Source: Thermoanaerobaculia bacterium (GTDB lineage: Bacteria > Acidobacteriota > Thermoanaerobaculia > UBA5066). From it: a stretch of DNA of 64,000 nt. This document shows, piece by piece, positions 46,052 through 64,000 of the stretch. The DNA is taken from the NCBI GenBank assembly GCA_963719225.1, contig CAVRAY010000001.1, positions 3,104,001-3,168,000 on the forward strand, read 5' to 3'. Position numbers and translations under genes: made by a program. Below the pieces are notes generated by a model, which saw nothing but the letters and a program-made list of their open reading frames with translations, was not told where the DNA came from and ran no database searches. Position 1 is the stretch's first letter. Each line of letters starts with the position of its first letter.

Positions 46052-46864
46052 TCAGCTGACGGCGGCGGGGGGCGACGGGAGGAACTCGACCTGCCGGGCC
46101 TCGAACAGCGCCACGTCGTCTTCGTCCGTCTGGAACGTCTTGAGCCCAGCGCCACGGGACAGGTCGTCCGACAGCGCGATCCAGGAGGTCATCCTCCCGA
46201 GCCGAAGCTGGTCGTCCGCATTCCGGCACGTCCCTTCGTAGAGGGCCGGCAGGTAAACGTCGCCGACCGTGCCGTCCAGGGCTTCCACCTTCGCGCGCGC
46301 CCAGACGAGGTCCCGGAGCTTCGACGGCGGGGTGACCTCCATGCGGCGGATCTGCTCGAACGGGAGCCACGCGTACTTGTCCTTGACGATGAGCTCCAGG
46401 ACGGGCCCGATCACGTCGTCCGAGTCGCGAAAATCGCCGAAAGGCCTGCCGTTCAGAGTGCCGGACAGCGCCGGGCGCTCCTCTTCGGCCCGGTCGAGGA
46501 GCTCCCGGGCCTCGGCGAAGCTCCCTTCGCGGATCCGGTTGATCGCCTCCAGGTGCCGGTCGACGTAGGGCGGCGGCTCGTTCAGGAAGTGGGGATGGAG
46601 GCCCTCCGAGAAGAGGCGCTGCCGCAGCCGCTCGGCCTGGATGTTCGACTGGTAGACGAGGACGGCGAGCGCCTCGTTCGGGCCCGCCTGCCCGAGGACC
46701 TCGATCTGCTTCTGCGCCCGATCCCATTCGCCGGCGAACGAGAGGAGCTCGAACAGGAAAATGCGCGCCGGGGCGTCCGCCGGGTTCGCGCGGACCTCGG
46801 CGGTGAGGGCCTGGATCGCCGCCTGGAGTTGACCGGCCTGATAGAGTTCGCGTGGTGTCGGCAT
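46052..46864 (-). CDS. tagJ: ImpE/SciE/TagJ family T6SS accessory protein
   Basis: VRANPAD...LFELL...GEWDRA..Q...DSD...GPVLE...Y.WLPF...LRDLVW...LRLGR.T.W. Confidence 0.92.
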   Translation of the reverse strand: MPTPRELYQAGQLQAAIQALTAEVRANPADAPARIFLFELLSFAGEWDRAQKQIEVLGQAGPNEALAVLVYQSNIQAERLRQRLFSEGLHPHFLNEPPPYVDRHLEAINRIREGSFAEARELLDRAEEERPALSGTLNGRPFGDFRDSDDVIGPVLELIVKDKYAWLPFEQIRRMEVTPPSKLRDLVWARAKVEALDGTVGDVYLPALYEGTCRNADDQLRLGRMTSWIALSDDLSRGAGLKTFQTDEDDVALFEARQVEFLPSPPAAVS

Positions 46865-46986
46865 GGTCTCTCCTCGCTTCTCGACGAGCTCTTGACCGCG
46901 GTCCGCGCCGTCAGTATTCTCCCCGCATTCTAACTGTTGGCCGCCGAATGGCATAAGCGTCTTTCTAACCGGAGGAAATCGTCGCG

Positions 46987-48098
46987 ATGCCGTCAGCTCC
47001 CGTTTTCAACCTGGACGCCCTGCTCGCGCCGATCCCGGGAGAAAACCCGAGCGGCGAGAACCTCCAGTACTCGGGGCTCCACGACGAGATTCGCGAAGCG
47101 CGCCGCGCCGACGACGACGTCCCGCAGGGCGACTGGGTTCACGAGCTGAAAGTCGCCGACTGGGAAAAAGTCGCCGAGCTCGCCGGCGAGAGTCTCGCCG
47201 GGAAGACGAAGGACCTCCAGATCGTGGCCTGGCTTTCGGAAGCCGCCGTGAGCATGAACGGATTCCCGGGCCTGAGAGATTCGCTGAAGCTCGCAAACGG
47301 GTTCCTCGTGAACTTCTGGGACACGCTGTATCCCGAGATCGACGAAGGGAACGACCTCGAAGCGCGCGCGAACGCCCTCGCGTGGATGGACCGCCAGGCC
47401 GCGGACGCGGCCCGGAAGATCGTGCTCACGAAGCGCTCCGGCACGAACTACAGCTTCTTCCAGTGGGAGGATGCGCTGCAGTACGACTTTCCGGCCGACA
47501 CCTCGAAGCTCTCGGGCGAGGCGCTCCAGCAGCTCGAGGAGAAGCGCGCACGCGCCCAGATGGAAGGAAAGGTCACCGGCGAGGAGATCCGGAAAGCCAA
47601 GAGCGAGACGCGACGCGCCTTCTACGAAGAGCTCTACGCGGACGTGGCCGACAGCACGGCGGCCCTGAAAGCGCTCGACAAGGAGATGGACGCCCGCTTT
47701 GCGCGCCAGACTCCGGGGCTCGGCAGCCTCGCGAAGGCTCTCGAGGCGATCCGGACCCTGCTCGAAAAGGTCGTCAAGGAAAAGAGGATCGAGGAGCCGG
47801 ACCCGTCCGACGCGGCCGAGGGAGCCGAGGGCGAAGCGTCGGGAGCCGCCGCCGGCGGGCCCGGCGGGGCCATTCGGGCCCGGGACCAGGCCCTCGCCCA
47901 GCTCGCGCAGGTCGCGGACTACTTCCGGAGGACCGAGCCGCACAGCCCGGTCTCGTATCTCGTCCAGCGCGCCATCACGTGGGGGCAGATGCCGCTGGAC
48001 GCCTGGCTTGGAGATGTGATCAAGGACGCAACGTTCTCGACGGTCTGCGCGAAACTCTCGGCCTCAAGGGCGGCGAGTCCGGCAGCACGGGAGCCTGA
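46987..48098 (+). CDS. tssA: TssA (ImpA-N, short type); frameshift near 48030
   Basis: LLAPIPGENPSG, DW, TKDL, FWDTLYP and FRRTEPHSPVSYL..RA..W motifs; the probable true end LRETLGL...GA* lies in another frame. Confidence 0.9.
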
Positions 48099-48109
48099 GG
48101 GAGGGGACC

Positions 48110-48650
48110 ATGCCGAAGAAAGAGAGTATCCAGCAGAAACTCAAGAGGGTCCGGCCTCCCCGCGTTCAGATCACGTATGACGTGGAGATCGGCGGGGCCA
48201 TCGAGATGAAGGAGCTGCCGTTCGTCGTCGGAGTCCTCGGCGACTTCTCCGGCCAGCCCGCCGAGCAGCTCCCGAGGCTGAAGGACCGGAAGCTGGTCGA
48301 GATCGACCGCGACAACTTCGACCAGGTGCTCGCGGCGCAGGCGCCGCGCCTGGCCCTTCGCGTCGACAACAAGCTGTCCGACGACGGCAGCAAGATGAAC
48401 GTCGAGCTGAGGTTCAACAACATCGACGGATTTCGAGCCCGAGCAGGTAGTCCAGCAGGTCGAGCCGCTCCGCAAGCTCGTCGAGGCGCGCCAGAGGCTC
48501 CGTGACATCCTCTCCAAGACCGACGGCAACGACAAGCTGGAAGCCATGCTGCACGGATCGTCCTCAAGAACCCGAACGCGCAGAAGCAGCTCGGCAAGCA
48601 GCTCGGCGTCGTGACGGACGAGGAAGGCAAGAAGGAAGAGGACCCCATGA
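48110..48650 (+). CDS. tssB: Sheath small subunit TssB (frameshifted in this sequence; end approximate)
   Basis: [14 protein letters not shown]...[14 protein letters not shown]; continues [16 protein letters not shown] in a shifted frame. Confidence 0.9.
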
Positions 48651-50153
48651 GTAAGAACCCCGAGAAAAAGGCCGAGTCGATCGTCCGAGAAGAGCAGGAG
48701 GCGGGACCTTCTCGACCAGATCCTCGAGAGGGGCGGCTGGCCCGCGACGAGGACCAGGTCGACCACGCCAAGGACATGATCGGCGAGTTCGTCCAGCAGG
48801 TCATGCAGGGACGAGGTCGTCGTGTCTCGAAGGACCCCGAGGCGATGATCAACGCGCGCATCGCGGCAGATCGACCGGCTGCTCTCGGCGCAGCTCAACG
48901 AGATCATGCACCACGCCGGACTTCCAGAAGCTCGAAGGCTCCTGGCGGGGCCTGCACTACCTCGTGCACGCAGACCGAGACCGGCACGATGCTCAAGATC
49001 CGGGTGCTGAACGTCTCCAAGAAGGACCTGCTCAAGGACCTCGAGCGGGCCGCCGAGTTCGACCAGACCGCGCTCTTCAAGAAGGTCTACGAGGAGGAGT
49101 ACGGCACGTTCGGCGGCGCGCCCGTTCGGCGCGCTGGTCGGCGACTACGAGTTCGGCAACCACCCGCAGGACATGGCGCTGCTCGAGAAGATCTCCAACG
49201 TCGCGGCCGCGGCGCACGCGCCGTTCATCTCCGCGGCCTCGCCCGAGCTGTTCGGCTGGGACAGCTTCACCGAGCTGGCCGAGGCCGCGCGACCTGGCCA
49301 AGATCTTCGAGACCGGACCGAGTACGCCAAGTGGCGGTCGTTCCGCGAGTCGGAGGACTCGCGCTACGTCGGCCTCATGCCTGCCGCACATCCTGATGCG
49401 GCTCCCTACGGCAAGGACACCGTCCCGGTCGAGGCGTTCAACTTCGAGGAGGACGTGGACGGCAAGCGACCACAAGAAGTACCTCTGGGGCAACGCCGCG
49501 TACGCCTTCGGGACGCGGCTGACCGAGGCGTTCGCGCAAGTACCACTGGTGCGCCGCGATCCGCGGCGTCGAGGGGGGCGGGCTGGTCCAGGGCCTGCCG
49601 GCGCACACGTTCCAGACCGACGAGGGCGACGTCGCGCTGAAGTGCCCGACCGAGATCGCGATCACCGACCGCCGCGAGAAGGAGCTCTCCGACCTCGGGT
49701 TCATCCCGCTGGTCCACTGCAAGAACACCGACTACGCGGCGTTCTTCGGCGCCCAGTCGGCGCCAGAAGGCGAAGATGTACGACACCGACTCCGCCAACG
49801 CCAACGCGCGGCTGTCGACGCAGCTCCCGTACATCTTCGCCGTCTCGCGGTTCGCCCACTACCTCAAGGCGATGATGCGCGACAAGATCGGCAGCTTCAT
49901 GTCGCCGCGCCGACTGCGAGCGGTTCCTGAACACGTGGATCTCGAACTACGTGACCCCGGACGACACCGCCTCGCCCGCAGGTCAAGGCGCAGTACCCGC
50001 TTCGCGAGGCGCGGATCGAGGTCGTGGAGTCGCCGGCAAGCCCGGCGTGCTACAGGGCGGTGGCGTTCCTGCGGCCGCACTTCCAGCTCGACGAGCTCCG
50101 GTCTCGCTGCGGCTGGTGGCCGAGCTGCCCAAGCCTCCGACGGAGGGGCGTAG
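48647..50153 (+). CDS. tssC: Sheath large subunit TssC (multiple frameshifts)
   Basis: Fragments across frames: [84 protein letters not shown]. Confidence 0.92.
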
Positions 50154-50262
50154 AGGGAAGCGCGGGAGGCGAAGGGTCGAGAGGACGCCCTCTGCGCTAA
50201 TCAGTCGGAGCCGGCCTGCGGCGACCCGGCCGCCCGGCCGCGCGAAGCGGCATGCCGAGCGC

Positions 50263-50747
50263 ATGTCCGATCGACAAGGAGATCCGGATCAACCTGTCGG
50301 TCCTCGACCGGCTGCTCGACTATCGGCCGGAGGTGAAGCCCGAGCCTCCCGCTTCGCGCGCAGAAGAGCCCTTCGCCAGGTGAAGCAGGCCGTCAAGCGG
50401 GACCTCGAATGGCTCCTCAACACGCGGCGGGTGCTCGAGGTGCCCGAACGAGCTGCCGCTCCTCGGCGACTCCATCGCTCGCGTACGGCCTTCCGGATTT
50501 CTCCAACGTCAGCGTGAAGAGCGCGGGGGACCAGGACGAGCTCTCGATGGCGCTCGAGACCGCGCTCAAGCGGTTCGAGCCGCGCCTCGAGGACGTCATG
50601 GTCACCGTCGCCAACGCGTCGGTGCTCGAACGCGCCTACCGGTTCAGGATCGAGGCGCGGCTGCGAGTCGATCCGGTTCCGGAGCCGATCTCCTTCGACA
50701 CGACCCTTCAGCTCGGGAGCGGCAACTTCGCGGTCAAGGGCGACTGA
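50263..50747 (+). CDS. tssE: Baseplate TssE (frameshifted)
   Basis: SVLDRLLD, VKRDLEWLLNTR, YGLPD and FEPRL motifs. Confidence 0.88.
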
Positions 50748-52607
50748 TGCGCAGCGACCTCCTGGAGTATTACGAGCGCGAGCTCGAGCTTCCTCCGCCA
50801 GATGGGAGCCGAGTTCGCCGACAAGTACCCGAAAATCGCCTCGCGCCTGCAGCTCGAGCCGGACAAGTGCGAGGACCCGCACGTCGAGCGGCTCCTCGAG
50901 GCGTTCGCGTTCCTCGCGGCGCGCGTGCGCCTCAAGATCGACGACGAGTTCCCCGAGATCACGGAATCGCTCCTCGGAATCCTGTATCCGACGTTCCTCG
51001 CTCCCGTGCCCTCGATGTCCGTCGCCCAGTTCGTCCTCGATTCCGAGCAGGTGAGCTTGCAGACCGGACAGGTCATTCCGAAAGGCGCGACGCTCGCGTC
51101 CGCTCCCGTCGACGGGCATCCCATGCCGGTTCCGGACCGCGTATCCGGTCACCATCTGGCCGGTCGAAGTGCGCGCCGCTCGGTTCGAGCAGGCGCCCGC
51201 GGTCACGATCGAAGGTCGCGACGCGCGGACGATGCTTCGCCTCGACCTGCACATCCTGGGAGCGGCCGCGCTGTCCGAGCTCAAGCGAGAAGTCGGTCCA
51301 GGGCGTCGAGCACCCGCTTTCGAAGCTCCGCTTCTACCTCCAGGGCGAAGGGAAGGTCGTCCACTCGCTCTACGAGCGCTCTTCAACGACGCGCTGTCCG
51401 TCGAGCTCCGCCCCAATTCGTCGGCTGGAGACGCCGCGGCGATCAAGCTGGGGCCCGGAGGCGCTCCGGCCGGTCGGTTTCGGCGAGGACGAGACGCTCC
51501 TGCCGACGCCGGACCGCCTTTTCCGGGGTTACCGCGTCCTCCAGGAATACTTCTCCTTCCCGGAGAAGTTCCTTTTCGTGGACCTCGAGGGGCTCGAGCG
51601 GCGTCCAGGGAAGCGCGTTCCGGACACGCTCGACGTCAGGATCCTCCTGGGACGTCCGTTCGCCGCCGAGCGGAGCGTCTCGGCGCAGACCTTCCGCCTC
51701 CACGCGACGCCGATCGTCAATCTCTTCTCGCAGATGGCGGAGCCCATTCGGGTGAGCACCTGACGCACGAGTACCGCGTCATTCCGAACCTGGGCCGACC
51801 GGGCGCGCACGAGGTCTGGTCCGTCGACAGCGTGACGTCGACGGGCGAAGACGTCGAGACCGTGCGGACCTTCCATCCGTTCTTCGCCTTCCGCCATGAC
51901 GCCGAACGCTCCGGACAGCAGGCCTTCTGGCATGCGAGCCGGCGCCCGTCGGAGCGCAAGGACGACGAGGGGACCGAGGTCTTCCTCACGCTCGTCGACA
52001 TGAACTTCGATCCGACCGTGCCGGATACGGACACGCTCACCGTGCACGTGACCAGCTCGAACCGCGACCTCCCGGCGCGCCTCCCGTTCGGGAATCCCGA
52101 GGGGGACTTCCAGCTCGAGGGACCTGGCGTTTTCACCGCGATCCGAAGCCTCGTGAAGCCGACCCCGAGCCTCCGGCCGCCGCTCCGGCGCGGGGCGCAC
52201 TGGAGGCTCATCTCGCATCTCGCCCTGAACGTTCTGTCGATCGTCGAGCGGGAGGGCGAGAAGGGTCCCGAAGCGCTCCGGGAGATCCTGCAGGCTCTAC
52301 GACATCTCCGATTCGTCCGTCACGAGGCAGCAGATCGACGGGATCTCGAAGCTCTCGGCGCGCCGGGTCGTCCGTCCGCTCCGCGACATCCACCCGGGAT
52401 TCGTGCGGGGACTCGAGGTCTCGATCGACTTCGACGAGCAGAAGTTCGTCGGGTTCGGGCGTCTACCTGTTCGCGTCCGTGCTCGAGCGGTTCCTGTCGC
52501 TCTATGCCTCCGTGAACTCCTTCAGCCAGCTCGTGGCGTCGACGAAGCAGCGCGAGGGCGTCCTCAAGCGCTGGCCGCCCCGCACCGGCGACCAGATCAT
52601 CCTTTGA
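50747..52607 (+). CDS. tssF: Baseplate TssF (multiple frameshifts)
   Basis: YYEREL, DPHVERLLEAFAFL, LQEYFSFPEKF, PIVNLF, WRLISHLALN, YASVNSFSQL and WPPRTG motifs. Confidence 0.92.
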
Positions 52608-53596
52608 ACGAGCGGCTGCGCACCCGACCCGAGCGATTCGGGTTCTTCCAGGCCGTCCGGCTGCTGGCGCGGCTGTCGCCGTCGCGCGTCCCGGTCGGTT
52701 ACGACGGGCCGCCGGGGAACGAGACCGCGCGCTTCAGGACCCGTGCGACCCTGGAATTCCCTCCCAGCGAGATTCACGACCTGCGAGTCGATCCGGACGA
52801 TCCGGACCGCCCGCCCGAGGTCACGGTGGCGATCGGAGGGACGACGGGCCCGCTCGGCGTACTCCCCATCCCCTATACCGAGCTCCTCATCGAGCGGGTC
52901 CGCTACAAGGACTACGCGCTCTGGGAGTTCTTCGATCTCTTCAACCACCGCTTCCTGTCTCTCTTCCACCGAGCCTGGCGGAAATACCGCTTCCCGCTCG
53001 TTTACGAGAGCGGCGGCGACGATCCCTTCATCCAGGGCCTCTTCGCGCTGATCGGCCTCGGAACGGGGAGCCTGCAGGGGCGCCAGAGCGTCTCCGACGA
53101 CGCTCTCCTCCTGTACGCCGGCCTCATCGCCCAGCGCCCGCACTCGGCGAGCGCGATCGAGGGAATGCTCCGCGATTATTTCGGTGTCCCGGCCCGGACG
53201 CGGCAGTTCGTCGGACAATGGCTGGACCTCGAGCCGGAAGACGCGTCGAGGCTCGGCGCCAGGAACAGCCGTCTCGGCGTCGACCTCGTTTGCGGCGACC
53301 ACGTCTGGAACAACCAGTCCCGCTTCCGGATCCGTCTCGGCCCGCTCGGATTCGCGTCGTTCCGGGCCTTTTTGCCGCGCGGAGACGCCTGGAGGCCGCT
53401 GAACGACCTCGTCCGGTTCCTCGTCGGCGTCGAGTACGACTTCGACCTGCAGCTCGTCCTGAAGAAGGAGGAGATTCCCGAATGTCACCTCGAGTCCGAC
53501 GCCCCGGCCCCGCCGATGCTCGGCTGGACGACCTGGCTCAAGAGCGCCCCCGCGCCCGAGGATGCCTCGGACCTGATTCTCGAGTCCATGAATTAG
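52571..53596 (+). CDS. tssG: Baseplate TssG (start CTG 52571 or TTG 52604)
   Basis: FGFFQAVRLL, G.LP..YTE, FFDLFNHR, WRKYR, QFVGQW and LGWTTWL motifs. Confidence 0.92.
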   Translation: MAAPHRRPDHPLNERLRTRPERFGFFQAVRLLARLSPSRVPVGYDGPPGNETARFRTRATLEFPPSEIHDLRVDPDDPDRPPEVTVAIGGTTGPLGVLPIPYTELLIERVRYKDYALWEFFDLFNHRFLSLFHRAWRKYRFPLVYESGGDDPFIQGLFALIGLGTGSLQGRQSVSDDALLLYAGLIAQRPHSASAIEGMLRDYFGVPARTRQFVGQWLDLEPEDASRLGARNSRLGVDLVCGDHVWNNQSRFRIRLGPLGFASFRAFLPRGDAWRPLNDLVRFLVGVEYDFDLQLVLKKEEIPECHLESDAPAPPMLGWTTWLKSAPAPEDASDLILESMN

Positions 53597-53638
53597 GATA
53601 AGAACCCGTCTCAAAGCGAGAAGAGGAAGGAAGCGACC

Positions 53639-56375
53639 ATGGGCGCGAATCTGAAATCCCTCATCGGCCGACTCAACGACACCTGCCGCAACGCACTGGA
53701 AGGCGCCGCCGGGCTTTGCCTGTCGCGGACGAACTACGACGTCGACGTGGAGCATCTGCTCGTCAAGCTGGGCGAAACGCCGGATACGGACTTCCACCGG
53801 ATCCTGCGCCGGTTCGAGATCGACGAGTCGCGGCTCGCGAAGGACCTCGTGCGGTCGCTCGACCGGCTCAAGACCGGGAACACGCGCACCCCGGCTCTCT
53901 CTCCGCGCCTCCCGAAGCTCATCGAGGAAGCCTGGCTCGTCGGTTCGATCGACTTCGGCGCCTCGAAGGTCCGGTCCGCGCACGTCCTCCTCGCGTTCCT
54001 CGAGAAGGACGAGTTCGCCCGCCTCGCGCGGGAGATCTCCAAGGAGTTCGCGGCGATCTCGGTCGAGGCGCTTCGCAAGGAGTTCGACAAGATCGTCTCG
54101 GGCTCGGTCGAGGATCGTGATGCGGCCTCGCTGAGCGAGGCGCCGTCCGGCGACGCGGCCGGCGGAGCGACGGGAGTCCCTGGCCGGACGAAGGCCCTGG
54201 ACCAGTACACCGTGGATCTCACGGCCCGCGCGAGGGCCGGTCACATCGATCCGATCCTCGGGAGGGACTCCGAGATCCGCCAGGTCATCGACATCCTCAC
54301 GCGCCGCCGCCAGAACAATCCCATCCTCACGGGAGAGGCCGGCGTCGGAAAGACGGCGGTCGTCGAGGGATTTGCCCTCCGGATCGCCGCAGGGGGACGT
54401 TCCCGGCCCGCTGAAGAACGTCGCCGTGAGGACCCTCGACCTCGGCCTCCTGCAGGCGGGAGCGGGAATCAAGGGAGAGTTCGAGAACCGCCTCAAGTCC
54501 GTGATCGAGGAGGTCAAGGCGTCGCCGCAGCCCATCGTCGTCTTCATCGACGAGGCGCACACGATGATCGGCGCGGGCGGACAGGCGGGACAGAACGACG
54601 CCGCGAACCTCCTGAAGCCCGCCCTCGCCCGCGGCGAGCTCAGGACGATCGCCGCGACGACCTGGGCCGAGTACAAGAAGTATTTCGAGAAGGACGCCGC
54701 TCTCGCCCGGCGCTTCCAGGTCGTCAAGGTGGAGGAGCCGACGGAGGAGTCCGCGATCATCATGATGCGGGGCCTCACGGAGCCCCTCGAGAACCATCAC
54801 AAGGTGCGCATCCTCGACGAGGCGGTCGAAGACGCGGTCCGCCTCTCGCACCGCTACATCTCGGGCCGGCAGCTCCCGGACAAGTCCGTCTCCGTGCTGG
54901 ATACGGCCTGCGCGCGTGTCGCGATCGGGCAGGCCGCGACACCTCCCGCGGTGGAGGACTCGCAGCGGCGGATCGACCACTGCGCGGCGGAGATCGGCGT
55001 CCTCGAGCGCGAGGCCGTCACGGGCGCCTCGCACGACAAGCGCCTCGCGGAGCTGAAGGAGCGGAAGGCCGCCGAAGAGGCGTCCCTCGCGAAGCTTCGG
55101 GCGCAGTGGGACGCCGAACGTGCCCTCGTCGAAAGGATCCGCGATCTCCGCGGCCAGCTCGAGGAGATCGCCTCGCCTTCGAAGAAGGGGAAGACCGCGG
55201 CGCCGCCCGCCGGCGCGAAAGCGCCGGCATCCGGAGCTCCGGCCGAGCCGGCGGCTCCCGCGGCACCCGTCCCTCCGCCCGATCCCGCCGCCCTTCGCGC
55301 CGAGCTCGAGAAGCTGAACGCGGAGCTCGACGCCATCCAGGGCGAGACGCCGCTCATGCAGGCGTGCGTGACGTCGCAGACGATCGCCGAGGTCATCTCG
55401 GGATGGACCGGGATCCCGGTCGGCAAGATGCTGACCGACGAGATCCACACGGTTCTCATGTTGAAATCGAAGCTCGAGCAGCGGGTCATCGGCCAGGCGC
55501 ACGGGCTCGAAGCGATCGCGAGCCGCATCCGGACCGCGCGCGCGAACCTGACCGACCCGCGCCGGCCGATCGGAGTCTTCCTCCTCGTCGGACCCAGCGG
55601 CGTGGGCAAGACGGAGACGGCGCTGACCCTGGCCGAGACGCTCTACGGCGGCGAGCGGAACCTGATCACGATCAACATGAGCGAGTACCAGGAAGCGCAC
55701 ACGGTCTCGTCGCTCAAGGGGTCGCCTCCGGGATACGTGGGATACGGCGAGGGAGGCGTCCTGACGGAGGCCGTGCGACGCCGTCCCTATTCGGTCGTCC
55801 TTCTCGACGAAGTCGAAAAGGCGCATCCCGACGTCATGGAGCTCTTCTATCAGGTCTTCGACAAGGGAATGCTCGAGGACGGGGAGGGCCGGGAGATCGA
55901 CTTCAAGAACACCGTCATCCTCCTGACGTCCAATGCCGCGACCGACACCATGATGAAGCTCTGCGCCGACCCCGAGACCGCGCCCGAGCCCGAGAAGCTC
56001 GTGGAGGCGATCAAGCCGGAGCTGAACAAGATCTTCAAGCCGGCCCTCCTCGGGCGCATGGTCATCGTGCCCTACTACCCGATCGGCGATGCGGTCATGC
56101 GCGAGATCATCAAGCTGCAGCTCGGGAGAATCGGGGCACGCCTTCTCGAGAACCACGGCGCGGCTTTCACCTACGACGACGCCGTCATCAAGGAGGTCTC
56201 GTCGCGCTGCAAGGAGGTCGAGAGCGGCGCCCGCAACGTGGACCACATCCTGACGCGGACGGTCCTCCCGGAAATGTCCGGCGAGTTCCTTTCGCGAATG
56301 GCGGAGGGGCGGATGATCTCGAAGGTGCACGTGACGGTCGGCGACGGGGGCGCCTTCCGCTACGAGTTCAGCTGA
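53639..56375 (+). CDS. tssH: ClpV/TssH AAA+ ATPase (one frameshift in the G run near 54392)
   Basis: [52 protein letters not shown] and ESGARN motifs. Confidence 0.95.
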
Positions 56376-59558: not shown

Positions 59559-60765
59559 ATGACGCCCGCTGCAAAGGTCACCAGCTTGACGGGTCACGGC
59601 ACACCCCTGAGTCCCGGCCCCGGCTGCCCCACCGTCCTGATCGGTTTCATGCCCGCCTGGCGTGCCCTGCCGGCGGCAATGGCGAGCGCAGTCCAGTCCG
59701 CCTGGAACGTGATGAACTCGTTCATGGTGAGGCCGCGGATGACGCCGGCCGAACGGGACGGCCAGCCTCGTCGGGATCTCCCAGTCGCTCTGTTCAGCAA
59801 GGGGCCAAGGCCGCCGGAGCCGGCGCGCCCGCTGCCGCGGGGACCGCGGGCAGCGCGGTGGCCGCGCTGAATACGGCGAACGTGGCGCTGACGGCGGTCT
59901 GGACGGCGGCCTCAGTCGTCCCGGGTGGCTCAGCCAGCCGCGAACATCGCCTACACCGAGGGGGTCAAGGCGGCGGCCGCGGCGGCAGCCAGCGCCGTCA
60001 TGGCGTCTATGGCGAGCCTCTCCGACATGCACATCTGCCCCATTCCCGTGCCGATCCCGCCGCACGGCCCGGGCTTCGTCACGAAGGGAAGCTCGACGGT
60101 CGTGATCGAGAACTGCCGCGGCACGCGCAGGGAGACCAGATCATCGAAGCCATGCGGCGGACCGGAACAAAATCGCGATGGGGGATCCGACGGTCATTAT
60201 CGGGGACTCCGGTAGCGGGGGCGAAGGGGGCGGCGGAGGCGGCGCAGGCGGAGGGGCGGCGCCGGCGCAGCTGGTGCCGGGGCCGGCACCGGCGCCGGTG
60301 CCGGCGCGGGTGCGGGCACGAAGCTGAACAAAGGACCATTCAAGACTGCGGACGAGGCGGCCAAAGCGGCGCTCAATGCCGCGAACCCTCAATCGATCAA
60401 GGACAACCTCGAGTATTCGGGTCTGATCTATCAGGGAAAGGACGGAGGGTTCTACTTCACGGGCCCGGCCAAGGGCTCCGATCAGGGCGCGAATCCGCAC
60501 AAGGATGCGCCTGCCCCGCCCGGTACGCACTGTGGTGGGCGACTACCACACTCACGGCGGACTACTCGACGCTGGACCCGAAAACGGGAGCAGCCGTACG
60601 AACGAATGACCCCTCGAAGGATCAGTTCAACAGCGACAACTTCTCGACGCAGGACAAGGCGGGACGCCGCGACGAAGCAGGGTTACCCGGAGCGGCTATC
60701 TCGGGACGCCGAGCGGAACGTTCCGAAAATTCGACCCTGCGACCGGAAGCGACACGGTGCTGTGA
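59559..60765 (+). CDS. PAAR domain with an Ala-rich helical insert, fused to a DUF4329 (JAB-like) toxin domain; several frameshifts
   Basis: Reassembled by hand: PAAKV...HG...GPG.PTVLIG.MPAWRA...DMHICP...HGPG.V..GS.TV...AARAGD...PTVIIG; Gly linker; FKTADEAA...EYSGLIY...DYHTHG...NFS..D...YLGTPSG..RKFDP...VL*. The start may instead be 59525. Confidence 0.75.
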
Positions 60766-60818
60766 GCCTGCTTTCGGCGGCCTCGGCCGCCCGATGGATG
60801 ATGGGAGGATTGGCAATC

Positions 60819-61326
60819 ATGGCGACGACCGGCCAGATCAAGGTGCTGGAGAGCATTCAGGGGAGCAGCTTCCTGGCAAGCGAGTCCGCCATGGGAGTCT
60901 TCCAGAGCCACAAGCCGGATTTCGAGCACGGCACCTTCGAAGTCCTCCGGGAGGGGGATTCGGAATTCGTGGTCTTCACCGACGGACAGGGGCAGCTCGG
61001 CGTCCGGGTCGGAACGGCGGCGGAGCTGAACGCGCAGGATCTCAAGGTGTTCGCGTCGAACCGGGCCCGCATGAAAGTCGTCGACACGATCCAGGGAAGC
61101 AACTTCCTGTCCATGCGCGTCGCCGTGGAAGTCTTCCGCCGACACAACCCGGACCTTGCCGAGTATCGGATCGAGGTCGTGCGGGACGGGGACTCCCACG
61201 TGGTCCTCTTCTCCGACAAGGACCGGAGCCACGGGACCCGAGGCAGCGCCGGTCGACCCGGATTCGAAGTCGCGATCGACCCGCGCAACCGAAGGGTCAC
61301 GCGATCGAATTTCGTCCGATATGTGA
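60819..61326 (+). CDS. Probable immunity protein with an internal duplication (end approximate)
   Basis: Directly after the toxin gene; GGAGG SD; two similar ~50-aa halves; stop probably lost to an indel after ...SNFVR. Confidence 0.55.
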
Positions 61327-61397: not shown

Positions 61398-61910
61398 TCA
61401 CTCCGCGAGGTCGATGATGTCGGAGCGTTGCGCGATCACGCTCGGACCCGGGCAGCCCAGGTGACCCCGCTGGAACATCGAGTGGTAGCCCAGTCCGAGA
61501 CCGTTGCGCGTGCTGGCGAGCTGCAGCGGCATTCCCCAGTTGGAATTGAACCAGGCGAGCAGGCGGGCGTTGCTCCTGACCTGCTCCTTCGTCAGCTCCT
61601 GGCCGGGCAGGGCGATGTTCTCGACGCTCACCCAGTGCGCGTCGTCGTTCCTCGTCTCGTCGCCCCCGACGCCCCACGCGATGTCACTCAGGTCCACGAA
61701 CTGTGCGATGTCGCCGTTCTTCGCGACGCAGAAGTGCGCCGATGCGCCGGCGCCCGGCACGTTGAACGTCGCAAAAATCCCGCCGAGGTCCGGCAGGTTC
61801 CCCTTCACTCCGTCCGTGATGTGCACCGCGATTCCCCGGGGGATCAGCGCCATGCCCCCCTTGGTGAAGTTGTGCTGAATGGGCCACCACCTCGCGAACG
61901 GAAGACGCAT
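61398..61910 (-). CDS. N-acetylmuramoyl-L-alanine amidase (Amidase_2)
   Basis: IAVHIT, ASAHF, IAQFV...AW, SVE and YH....CPG motifs. Confidence 0.85.
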   Translation of the reverse strand: MRLPFARWWPIQHNFTKGGMALIPRGIAVHITDGVKGNLPDLGGIFATFNVPGAGASAHFCVAKNGDIAQFVDLSDIAWGVGGDETRNDDAHWVSVENIALPGQELTKEQVRSNARLLAWFNSNWGMPLQLASTRNGLGLGYHSMFQRGHLGCPGPSVIAQRSDIIDLAE

Positions 61911-61912
61911 CG

Positions 61913-63418
61913 TTACCCCCTGCCTCTTTCCCAGCGGCCGGCGAGGGCGCGCATGGGTTTCGCGATCGACTGGAGGCGCGCGACGCGCACGCTCTCGCTG
62001 CCCTTGAGCGACAGGACCGGGACGAGACCGGCCTCGAGCAGCTTCTCCGCGGCGCGCACCGTGAGGACGACCTCGGACGGCGGAACGACGCGCGTCTCGA
62101 GGCCGTCCTTGAAGACATGCGTGGGGAGACCCTGGATTTCCGCCGCCGTCTCGGGACGGAGGTCCCACCCGCCTTCCTCGAACGCGCCCAGGAGGACGAG
62201 CGCGCCGGCAACCGCGCCATTCCCCCAGACGAAGGCTTCGTGCTCGGGAGAGCCCGGAATTTCCTCGAACGGGAAGGAGTCGATGGGCTCGGTCTTCGCG
62301 CCGTACGGGCGCCGCAACATGAGGCGCGGCAGCGCGAGCGCGACCCAGGCCGCCTCGTCGAGACCGCGAAGCTCCTCCCAGATCATGGCGCCTTCCTCTT
62401 CCGGTTTCCGCCAGTCGGCGGGATCGGGCGTCGCGGCCAGGGACGCGCACCCGACGAAGTCCGGGCGCGCGCCCGCGAGGAACGGAGCTCCCGCGGCACG
62501 GGCGACCTTCGCGACGCGCGCGAGGAAAGCCGCATCGGCGAGCGTCGGGCCGAACTCGTAGAGGCCGAGGACTGCTCCCCAGGGCTCGGCGCCCGGCGTC
62601 TCGACGGTCTCGGTCACGAGTCGCCGGTAGAGTCCGGTTCCCGACAGGTTCTCGTGGCTCGTGAGGTCTTCGAGCAGGGCCTCACGCGCGACGTCGAGGA
62701 AGAAAATGCGAACGCTCTCGCCCCCGGCACGGCGCACGAGCAGGTCGAGCGAGCGCCACGCCGCCTCGACCTTCCGGAATCGCGGATCGCGGAGGATCGT
62801 GCGGAGCAGCCCGGAGCGCACCTCGTCCACGGCGTCCTTGAGCCGCGGGAGATCGGCGTCCTCCTCGGGAGCGAGATGGGGCCGGACGATCGCCTTGAGC
62901 TCGGCCTCGAACGCCGAATCGGCGGGCTTCTGCCGCCGCGAAGCGCCCGCGAGAAGCTCGTTCACGATGTCCTCTTCCCCGCCGGCTCTTTTCGGAGCGT
63001 CTGCCCCGCGCCGCTCGGGAGGAGGGCCAGCGAAGGCGCGCACCTCGTTCGCCGCCTCGGCGAACGACCGGGGATTCTCGAGCCGCTCGCGCACGTCGCG
63101 CCACCTCGCGAGCGCCTCGACGCGCTCGAGCAGGCGGTCGGGATGGAGATCGTCGAAGTCGCGCAGAGAGATCCTCGCGGCCGGCCCTTCTCCGAGGCGC
63201 ACGTCCATCGTCGCGTCGAGGCCGCCGAGCACGTCCTCGAGGTCGTCCCGGTCCACGGCGTGAGTCTTTCGAGTCGCGAGGGGACCGGAGCCGCTTCCGC
63301 CGAAATCGCCGAGGACGAGAAGCCGAAAGGGCGTTTCGGGATCGAGCGGCTCGGCCGACGTCTGGGTTTCGCTCCCCAGCCTCACGTCGACGTTGCCGGA
63401 CGGCGGGCGCTTGGACAT
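61913..63418 (-). CDS. TssB-TssC fusion sheath-like protein lacking the TssC C-terminal domain
   Basis: PFRLLVLGDFGG...VDRD...DDLHPD (TssB-like), then ILRDPRFRKVEAAWRSL...APFLAG...PR.MLR.PYG...WGNGA...AGLVP (TssC-like); GGAGG SD. Confidence 0.8.
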   Translation of the reverse strand: MSKRPPSGNVDVRLGSETQTSAEPLDPETPFRLLVLGDFGGSGSGPLATRKTHAVDRDDLEDVLGGLDATMDVRLGEGPAARISLRDFDDLHPDRLLERVEALARWRDVRERLENPRSFAEAANEVRAFAGPPPERRGADAPKRAGGEEDIVNELLAGASRRQKPADSAFEAELKAIVRPHLAPEEDADLPRLKDAVDEVRSGLLRTILRDPRFRKVEAAWRSLDLLVRRAGGESVRIFFLDVAREALLEDLTSHENLSGTGLYRRLVTETVETPGAEPWGAVLGLYEFGPTLADAAFLARVAKVARAAGAPFLAGARPDFVGCASLAATPDPADWRKPEEEGAMIWEELRGLDEAAWVALALPRLMLRRPYGAKTEPIDSFPFEEIPGSPEHEAFVWGNGAVAGALVLLGAFEEGGWDLRPETAAEIQGLPTHVFKDGLETRVVPPSEVVLTVRAAEKLLEAGLVPVLSLKGSESVRVARLQSIAKPMRALAGRWERGRG

Positions 63419-63497: not shown

Positions 63498-64000
63498 ATG
63501 TCGACGTCGCGACGAGAGCCGACCGAGTACGACGCCGTCTCGTATCCCGGGTCGCCGTTTTCCCAGACCCATCCGGATCGCCTCGCGACGACCGCCGCTC
63601 TGTACGGGCTCGCGGCGGCTCCCCCCGAGCGCTGCCGGGTGCTGGAGCTCGGCTGCGGAGACGGCGGCAACCTGATCCCGATGGCCTACGTCCTTCCGGA
63701 AAGCACGTTCCTCGGCCTCGACGCGGCGGGGTCGGCGATCGCCCAGGGCATGGAGCAGGTCGCCGCTCTCGGTCTGACGAACGCGACTCTCCTTCATGCC
63801 GACCTTCTCGAGGCTTCGAATCTCGGCACGTTCGACTACGTCATCGCCCACGGCCTCTACTCGTGGGTGCCGCCTCCCGTGCAGGAGCGGATCTTCGCGA
63901 TCGCCTCCGAGGCGCTCGCCCCGAACGGCGTCGCGTACGTGAGCTACAACGCCCTTCCCGGATGCCACGTGAGGAACGCGATGCGCGAGATGATGCTGTG
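63498..64000 (+). CDS. Class I SAM-dependent methyltransferase (regulatory-domain-associated type); runs off the window
   Basis: Not in the ORF track: YDAVSYP...THPDRL...RVLELGCGDGGNL...FDYVIAHGLYSWV...GVAYVSYNALPG. Confidence 0.88.
   Translation, partial: MSTSRREPTEYDAVSYPGSPFSQTHPDRLATTAALYGLAAAPPERCRVLELGCGDGGNLIPMAYVLPESTFLGLDAAGSAIAQGMEQVAALGLTNATLLHADLLEASNLGTFDYVIAHGLYSWVPPPVQERIFAIASEALAPNGVAYVSYNALPGCHVRNAMREMML

What the first reader, a model, noticed from the sequence alone, without database searches (positions are those of the whole stretch)
61913..63418. Separate TssB-TssC fusion missing the polymerisation end
Seen: the TssB core is joined to TssC sequence that stops at the equivalent of [10 protein letters not shown]...GAQS. 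It therefore lacks the NARL...LRPHFQL...LRLV C-terminal domain that the main TssC retains. Established: that region forms the inner handshake layer of the sheath. Inference: a sheath cap, first-ring adaptor, dominant-negative inhibitor or ClpV/TagJ decoy. The frame is intact, so it is not an assembly artefact.
Basis: partly seen in the sequence, partly recalled or inferred. Interest (0 to 1): 0.7.

Follow-up and report, generated by a model that had tools for sequence, protein, structure and literature searches.

The report
Short TssCL-like T6SS sheath mimic
This gene encodes a real, widely conserved one-chain copy of the outer part of the type VI secretion sheath building block that lacks the domain needed to extend the sheath, so it likely acts as a removable brake on sheath assembly; longer relatives were noted in marine bacteria in 2022, and I found no functional test of any member in the papers searched.

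Summary
Observation confirmed. The 501-aa ORF has TssB (VipA 20-118) and TssC N-terminal (VipB 196-484) domains and no VipB_2; the main TssC has VipB_2. The truncation is a family trait: none of 80 genome loci carries the C-terminal domain. 46 of 50 carrier genomes checked hold a canonical TssC.

It is not unreported. It groups with the core of roseobacter TssCL (Suria 2022, in silico only): 33% identity over 476 aa, one branch with SH-aLRT 100. It lacks TssCL's extra TssB domain and acidic repeats, and the family spans at least eight phyla.

Kept: a fixed-length N-terminal beta-strand arm (88 of 119, shuffle maximum 21) and the LLDEII-type helix read by ClpV. Lost: the acceptor domain and several TssC-invariant motifs.

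Best guess (0.35): a ClpV-removable stopper that plugs a free linker-acceptor site. A soluble ClpV decoy is close (0.30). The scan found this family before on other DNA (seven notes).

The parts
61913..63418 (-). Short TssCL-like gene: one-chain TssB core + TssC domains 3 and 2, no domain 1 (501 aa)
   Evidence: model pLDDT 88.5, pTM 0.85; best folds VipB/TssC, Z 28-34; dN/dS 0.225 across 7 same-genus copies including the window's
63371..63400 (-). N-terminal arm strand (residues 7-16, V-x-V-x-L), positional counterpart of the TssB linker strand RVQITYDVE; unplaced in the monomer model
   Evidence: 88 of 119 arms with h-x-h-x-h, shuffle mean 10.7, max 21; pLDDT under 50 for residues 1-16
63065..63361 (-). 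TssB/VipA core (residues 20-118)
   Evidence: PF05591
62945..62974 (-). Helix equivalent to the TssC N-terminal ClpV-recognition helix (residues 149-158; family LLDxIL, here IVNELL)
   Evidence: (H151-159); motif role from PMC4239648 passages
61967..62833 (-). TssC/VipB N-terminal (middle-layer) domain, residues 196-484
   Evidence: PF05943
61928..61966 (-). Family-specific C-terminal tail (L492 91%, G494 89%, W496 90% of 142 rows) in place of domain 1
48110..50153 (+). Canonical tssB-tssC of the same cluster, with VipB_2; frame-broken in this assembly, likely by consensus errors
   Evidence: related contigs differ by single-base indels at these places (table 4)
46052..46954 (-). tagJ/impE of the cluster
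   Evidence: PF07024
46987..48180 (+). short-type tssA
   Evidence: TIGR03363 2-343 of 353
53639..56375 (+). clpV (frame-broken in this assembly), the inferred partner

Best explanation
The gene encodes a folded one-chain mimic of the outer two layers of a T6SS sheath subunit that cannot extend the sheath, and it likely works as a ClpV-removable stopper. Shown here: the domain content, the conserved end, the kept arm and helix, the lost TssC motifs, and dependence on a canonical T6SS. Step 1 (inferred): its N-terminal beta-strand slots into a free linker-acceptor site, either TssE on an idle baseplate or domain 1 of the last sheath ring. Step 2 (follows from sheath geometry if step 1 holds): it offers no acceptor and no C-terminal linker, so no further subunit can be added at that position. 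Step 3 (inferred): ClpV grips the LLDEII-type helix and pulls it off, which would let assembly go on. The net effect would be a tunable brake on sheath initiation or length.
For: No domain 1 in any of 80 loci, and none of the 150 best cluster representatives (369-634 aa) has room for it. Each sheath subunit hands two linkers to the ring nearer the baseplate, and TssE was proposed to accept those of ring 1 (PMC5813253 passages). The arm has a sharp length mode (36 residues in 45 of 135) and an alternating hydrophobic strand at offsets 23/25/27, against 19-25 in TssB; 88 of 119 versus shuffle maximum 21. The arm is unplaced in the monomer model. The helix is conserved inside an otherwise variable linker (L69 L81 D51 x x L77 percent); a strict LLD-type motif is in 33 of 42 carriers whose single TssC is LLD-type. 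It was never found without TssC in the samples drawn without regard to the gene: 0 of 267 VipB-negative phylum genomes and 0 of 12 TssC-negative same-genus genomes. Roseobacter forms carry a near-canonical TssB at the N-terminus, which would tether this core to the sheath. Altered subunits that still co-assemble are dominant negative in Vibrio (PMC5797969 passages).
Against: No binding was tested. Docking would rest on one linker instead of two, and the arm sequence has drifted from the invariant TssB strand. 61 columns that are at least 90% invariant in TssC are kept in under 30% of fusions, against 46 kept (about seven of the 61 lie at the truncation boundary). These include the VipB K223 equivalent (K in 42 of 47 TssC; A, S or L in most fusions; I here), whose mutation abolished sheath assembly in Vibrio. 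That argues for weak or no lattice contact. The gene is dispensable: 12 verified (up to 15) of 33 T6SS-bearing phylum genomes have it. The window's own helix (IVNELL) departs from LLDxIL. 16 of 135 arms are under 28 residues, though some may be start-call errors. 4 of 50 carrier genomes gave no VipB_2 match (incomplete assemblies).
Confidence: 0.35

Rival explanations
1. Soluble ClpV decoy or tuner. The protein never joins the lattice; it displays the ClpV helix on a monomer and so titrates, stores or primes the ATPase.
For: Helix kept while many TssC-invariant residues are lost. The helix differs where TssC is of the H1 type: 7 of 7 read ERLL or FxxLI/V and 0 of 7 have the LLD motif. The gene directly follows clpV in L008 and L035 and lies within 3 kb of it in L009, L023, L027 and L028.
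Against: It does not explain the conserved arm or the family-specific invariants (W280, PCA at 446-448, LAGRW). The helix covariation has only 1 independent pair on starred branches (3 on all branches), sign test p 1, and the alternative motif was defined after seeing the data. ClpV binding was not tested.
Confidence: 0.3
2. Co-factor of the TagJ/short-TssA module, for example a template that loads or parks TssA or TagJ.
For: TagJ is in 41 of 46 carrier genomes. In the phylum sample it is in 14 of 15 probable carriers against 7 of 18 non-carriers. TssA N-terminal domains were modelled onto the distal sheath end (PMC11106082 passages).
Against: The HsiB1 8-30 segment that binds TagJ (PMC4239648) has no counterpart in the short form. 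Kin are not independent, so the association may only mark a T6SS subtype. 5 of 46 carriers gave no TagJ match.
Confidence: 0.13
3. Structural 'ring zero'. The protein wraps TssE, which supplies the missing gp25-like domain, to form a composite first ring.
For: TssE is homologous to domain 1 (Pfam calls VipB_2 gp25-like), so the two are complementary in domain content.
Against: More than half of the T6SS genomes sampled lack the gene. It is not placed beside tssE in the loci. The LAGRW tail may cover the surface freed by domain 1 (inference).
Confidence: 0.1
4. A role away from sheath dynamics (a scaffold for the neighbouring methyltransferase or the 255-aa protein), or a relic.
For: 39 of 80 loci show no T6SS core gene in the DNA held (22 of 56 loci of 15 kb or more). 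The methyltransferase is a neighbour in 7 of 80 loci.
Against: Most such genomes still have TssC elsewhere. The 255-aa family is in only 11 of 46 carrier genomes. Purifying selection (dN/dS 0.225) argues against a decaying relic.
Confidence: 0.12

Closest known systems
TssCL of roseobacter T6SS1 clusters (Suria et al. 2022, PMC9515649; section 12, passages and a supplement search seen)
   Same: Divergent VipA + VipB core without VipB_2, beside separate tssB and tssC. 33% identity over 476 aa, E 5e-61, to a Leisingera caerulea protein with TssCL architecture; same side of a 100-support branch against 23 TssC; equivalent end motif (GPW versus GRW).
   Different: TssCL is about 1,550-1,680 aa with a second, near-canonical N-terminal TssB domain, about 800 aa of acidic repeats and an acidic tail. 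This protein is the bare 501-aa core. The paper reported TssCL only in Alphaproteobacteria and proposed a recent origin; relatives here span at least eight phyla.
Canonical TssB/TssC (VipA/VipB, HsiB1/HsiC1) protomer; PDB 3J9G, 5N8N, 5URW, 5MXN
   Same: Fold of domains 2 and 3 (Z 28-34, rmsd 2.1-3.8), N-terminal arm position, ClpV-type helix.
   Different: One chain; no domain 1 or C-terminal linker; about 30% identity to TssC; less conserved (mean identity 50% versus 69% in the same 47 genomes); EFDQS, RGVEGGG and DRRE motifs lost.
DUF770+DUF877 fusion noted in gammaproteobacterium HdN1 (Lossi et al. 2013, PMC3597794, discussion passage)
   Same: Same two Pfam domains in one chain.
   Different: 622 aa; not fetched here, so whether it has domain 1 or an acidic tail is untested.
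Sheath-regulating accessories TagA/TsmA, TagB/TsmB, TagJ (review PMC13584744, passages)
   Same: Non-essential factors that tune sheath length, stability or recycling.
   Different: No homology shown; none is described there as a sheath-subunit paralogue. The review has 0 occurrences of TssCL.

Membership tests
TssCL (Suria 2022) | One VipB domain of about 30% identity to the cluster's TssC, preceded by a divergent VipA domain | tested here: met
   30-31% to TssC of same-genus genomes
TssCL (Suria 2022) | Second, near-canonical VipA domain and long (about 1,680 aa) chain | tested here: not met
   501 aa, one VipA match; upstream DNA holds a divergently transcribed methyltransferase gene
TssCL (Suria 2022) | Genome keeps separate tssB and tssC | tested here: met
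TssCL (Suria 2022) | Restricted to Alphaproteobacteria | tested here: not met
   nearest named relatives (77-82%) are Acidobacteriota/Thermoanaerobaculia records
TssCL (Suria 2022) | Common descent of the VipB core, apart from TssC | tested here: met
   21 fusion/TssCL rows versus 23 TssC rows on one branch, SH-aLRT 100, quick tree, midpoint root. The type protein of ANG-M7 was not fetched; Leisingera caerulea and Ruegeria conchae stand in.
Canonical TssC (TIGR03355) | C-terminal VipB_2/gp25-like domain and C-terminal linker | tested here: not met
Canonical TssC (TIGR03355) | Polymerises with TssB into a contractile sheath | not testable with these tools
   inferred impossible on its own from sheath geometry
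Canonical TssB (TIGR03358) | Full-length VipA match with the invariant N-terminal linker strand | tested here: not met
   35.4 bits against cut-off 97.25; strand pattern kept, sequence not
ClpV substrate (LLDEII class) | LLDEII-type N-terminal TssC helix | tested here: inconclusive
   kept in the family (33 of 42); the window's own helix is IVNELL and fails the strict pattern; helical in the model
ClpV substrate (LLDEII class) | Binds the ClpV N-domain groove | not tested
   no complex model could be run

The most novel reading that the evidence does not exclude
A sheath-subunit paralogue spread over at least eight phyla acts as a natural chain terminator of the T6SS: it plugs TssE or the last ring through one beta-strand and is released by ClpV. 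That would give ClpV a licensing role before firing, not only a recycling role after it, and make TssCL a tethered version of the same brake.
Probability: 0.25. Interest if true: 0.8.

Novelty: new variant of a known kind. Interest (0 to 1): 0.45.

Why it matters
How T6SSs with short TssA start, stop and recycle their sheaths is only partly known. A conserved, donor-only sheath subunit with a ClpV handle would be a new kind of built-in control part. It would also recast TssCL from a roseobacter oddity into one form of an old, multi-phylum family that RefSeq labels as a plain large sheath subunit, which can inflate tssC counts. Cultured carriers exist (Leisingera, Ruegeria, Phaeobacter, Eleftheria), so it is testable now.

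Tried and rejected
Complex prediction of the arm with TssC domain 1 was not available, so there is no structural test of binding.

Assembly artefact: rejected by the conserved end and an independent contig.

Replacement of tssB/tssC: rejected.

Recent local truncation of the genome's own tssC: rejected; all 50 fusions lie apart from all 55 TssC (5 genomes dropped for a failed motif match, 9 TssC rows cut short).

The 255-aa protein as obligate partner: rejected, 11 of 46.

Helix co-evolution with TssC class: the pattern is seen but not established, 1-3 independent pairs (2 rows without an extracted linker, mixed or unclassified genomes left out of the tree).

'D333 lost': only partly; D in 47 of 47 TssC, E in 33 of 47 fusions, V here.

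Promoter scan found nothing. No RNA holder was listed, so expression is unknown.

Literature: searches. 'TssCL' + 'T6SS' gave only PMC9515649. The library lacks most subscription papers, so an unseen study is possible. Kudryashev 2015 was not held. Only two rows of the Suria supplement table were seen.

Full report
Observation. The ORF at 61913-63418 on the minus strand is open for 501 codons. Pfam finds VipA at 20-118 and VipB at 196-484, and no VipB_2. Against solved sheaths it aligns only as far as the FFSANS-QKP motif. In the whole genome VipB_2 occurs only at the main tssC. An AlphaFold2 model from 64 sequences is confident (pLDDT 88.5) and matches VipB/TssC best.

Context. The gene sits at the edge of a T6SS cluster with tssK, L, M, tagF, two hcp, tagJ, short tssA, tssB, C, F, G, clpV and vgrG, on the opposite strand. 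An amidase gene follows it and a methyltransferase gene diverges from it. tssB, tssC, tssF and clpV are frame-broken in this assembly. Contigs of close relatives differ by one- or two-base indels at those places, so consensus errors are likely. An intact frame alone therefore proves little here.

A conserved family. The first search gave 464 proteins; the 120 listed are mostly 480-526 aa with both domains. The genome scan kept the best 80 of 388 confirmed stretches. None has the C-terminal domain: 79 end within 12 residues of the same point and one breaks earlier. The 150 best cluster representatives have no room for it. These sets were selected with a profile of the fusion, but a full-length fusion of about 620 aa was within the lengths searched. 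Record titles span Acidobacteriota, Thermodesulfobacteriota, Nitrospirota, Planctomycetota, Gemmatimonadota, Verrucomicrobiota, Binatota and Pseudomonadota. Seven same-genus copies, the window's included, give dN/dS 0.225.

It depends on a normal T6SS. I gave fifty of the 80 loci, mostly those without tssC nearby; 46 genomes have VipB_2. In 301 genomes drawn from the phylum, 34 have any VipB match and the 33 other than G000 all have a canonical TssC. 12 of these 33 have a verified fusion, and three more are probable. In the genus, 10 of 12 TssC-bearing genomes have it and 0 of 12 without TssC do. TagJ is in 41 of 46 carriers. So it is an optional accessory, not a substitute.

What is kept. First, an N-terminal arm whose length peaks at 36 residues before the core motif, with an alternating hydrophobic strand in 88 of 119 arms against a shuffle maximum of 21. 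It lies two to four residues further out than the TssB linker strand and is unplaced in the monomer model. Second, a helix equivalent to the TssC LLDEII motif that ClpV binds in Vibrio (PMC4239648, passages). It stands out in a variable linker and matches a strict pattern in 33 of 42 carriers with LLD-type TssC. The window's own copy reads IVNELL and fails that pattern. All 7 carriers with H1-type TssC have a different motif, but this rests on 1-3 independent pairs and a motif defined after the fact, so co-evolution is not shown.

What is lost. Domain 1 and the C-terminal linker. Also 61 TssC-invariant columns, against 46 kept, among them the EFDQS, RGVEGGG and DRRE motifs. I mapped VipB K223 and D333 to I346 and V454 from the alignment; the numbering offset is my inference, checked by their 110-residue spacing. 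K223A blocked assembly and D333A blocked contraction in Vibrio (PMC5797969, passages). The lysine is lost in the family; the aspartate is mostly glutamate, and valine here. The TagJ-binding N-terminal segment of TssB is absent.

Mechanism. Each subunit passes two linkers to the ring nearer the baseplate, and TssE was proposed to accept those of the first ring (PMC5813253, passages). A subunit with an arm but no acceptor can therefore only end a chain. I commit to a ClpV-removable stopper (0.35): dock by the arm, block addition, be pulled off by the helix. Docking and ClpV binding are inferred, not shown. The loss of lattice residues favours the rival, a soluble ClpV decoy (0.30). A TagJ/TssA co-factor (0.13), a composite first ring with TssE (0.10) and a role away from the sheath (0.12) are less likely.

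What is known. Suria et al. 2022 (PMC9515649, section 12 read) named TssCL in roseobacters: two VipA domains and one VipB domain, 1,684 aa, reported only in Alphaproteobacteria, no function tested. A Leisingera caerulea gene has this layout: canonical TssB, acidic repeats, core, acidic tail. Its core is 33% identical to the window protein over 476 aa and falls with the fusions on a branch of SH-aLRT 100 (quick tree, midpoint root, long branches present). Lossi et al. 2013 mention a DUF770+DUF877 fusion in passing. A 2026 review of accessory factors has no occurrence of TssCL. Because the window protein lacks the second VipA domain and the long chain, I file it as a short variant of the TssCL kind and not as TssCL itself.

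Verdict. Real, conserved and, in the papers I could search, functionally unstudied, but already noticed in print and found repeatedly by this scan. What this work adds is the breadth of the short form, the strict link to canonical TssC, and the conserved donor arm that points to a terminator. Interest 0.45.

Noticed in passing
window 48027-56375: tssB, tssC, tssF and clpV carry many frame breaks; contigs of close relatives show one- or two-base indels at several of these places, so they are likely assembly errors.
   Followed up: partly
window 63498-64000 (continues to G000 C1:3169045): SAM methyltransferase divergent from the fusion. A relative (L066) has MethyTransf_Reg and PKMT_2nd domains and three tandem copies; it neighbours the fusion in 7 of 80 loci, in either orientation.
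   Followed up: partly
G000 C1:3174290-3176213, 6-8 kb beyond the window: Tandem pair of an unnamed 255-aa family with no Pfam match over cut-off; found in 15 of 79 T6SS genomes tested, several times near T6SS genes.
   Followed up: partly
window 61398-61910 (-): Amidase_2 gene starting just after the fusion's stop codon; not present at this place in the close relative L066.
   Followed up: no
window 59559-61322: Frame-broken PAAR-like gene with a DUF4329 region after vgrG, followed by a small duplicated-domain gene; looks like an antibacterial effector-immunity pair.
   Followed up: no
L151:15127-19767; L153:13333-16743; L152:14932-16710: Long forms carry many acidic LDxLLxDL-like repeats and end in an acidic helix (ELAALL); the repeats resemble the LLDEII helix by eye. 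RefSeq annotates only the last 593 aa of the 1,546-aa frame in L151.
   Followed up: no
window 46052-50153 and loci L003-L069: These Acidobacteriota systems combine TagJ with an LLD-type TssC helix, which Forster 2014 saw only in Solibacter; it looks common in this phylum.
   Followed up: partly
   Followed up: no
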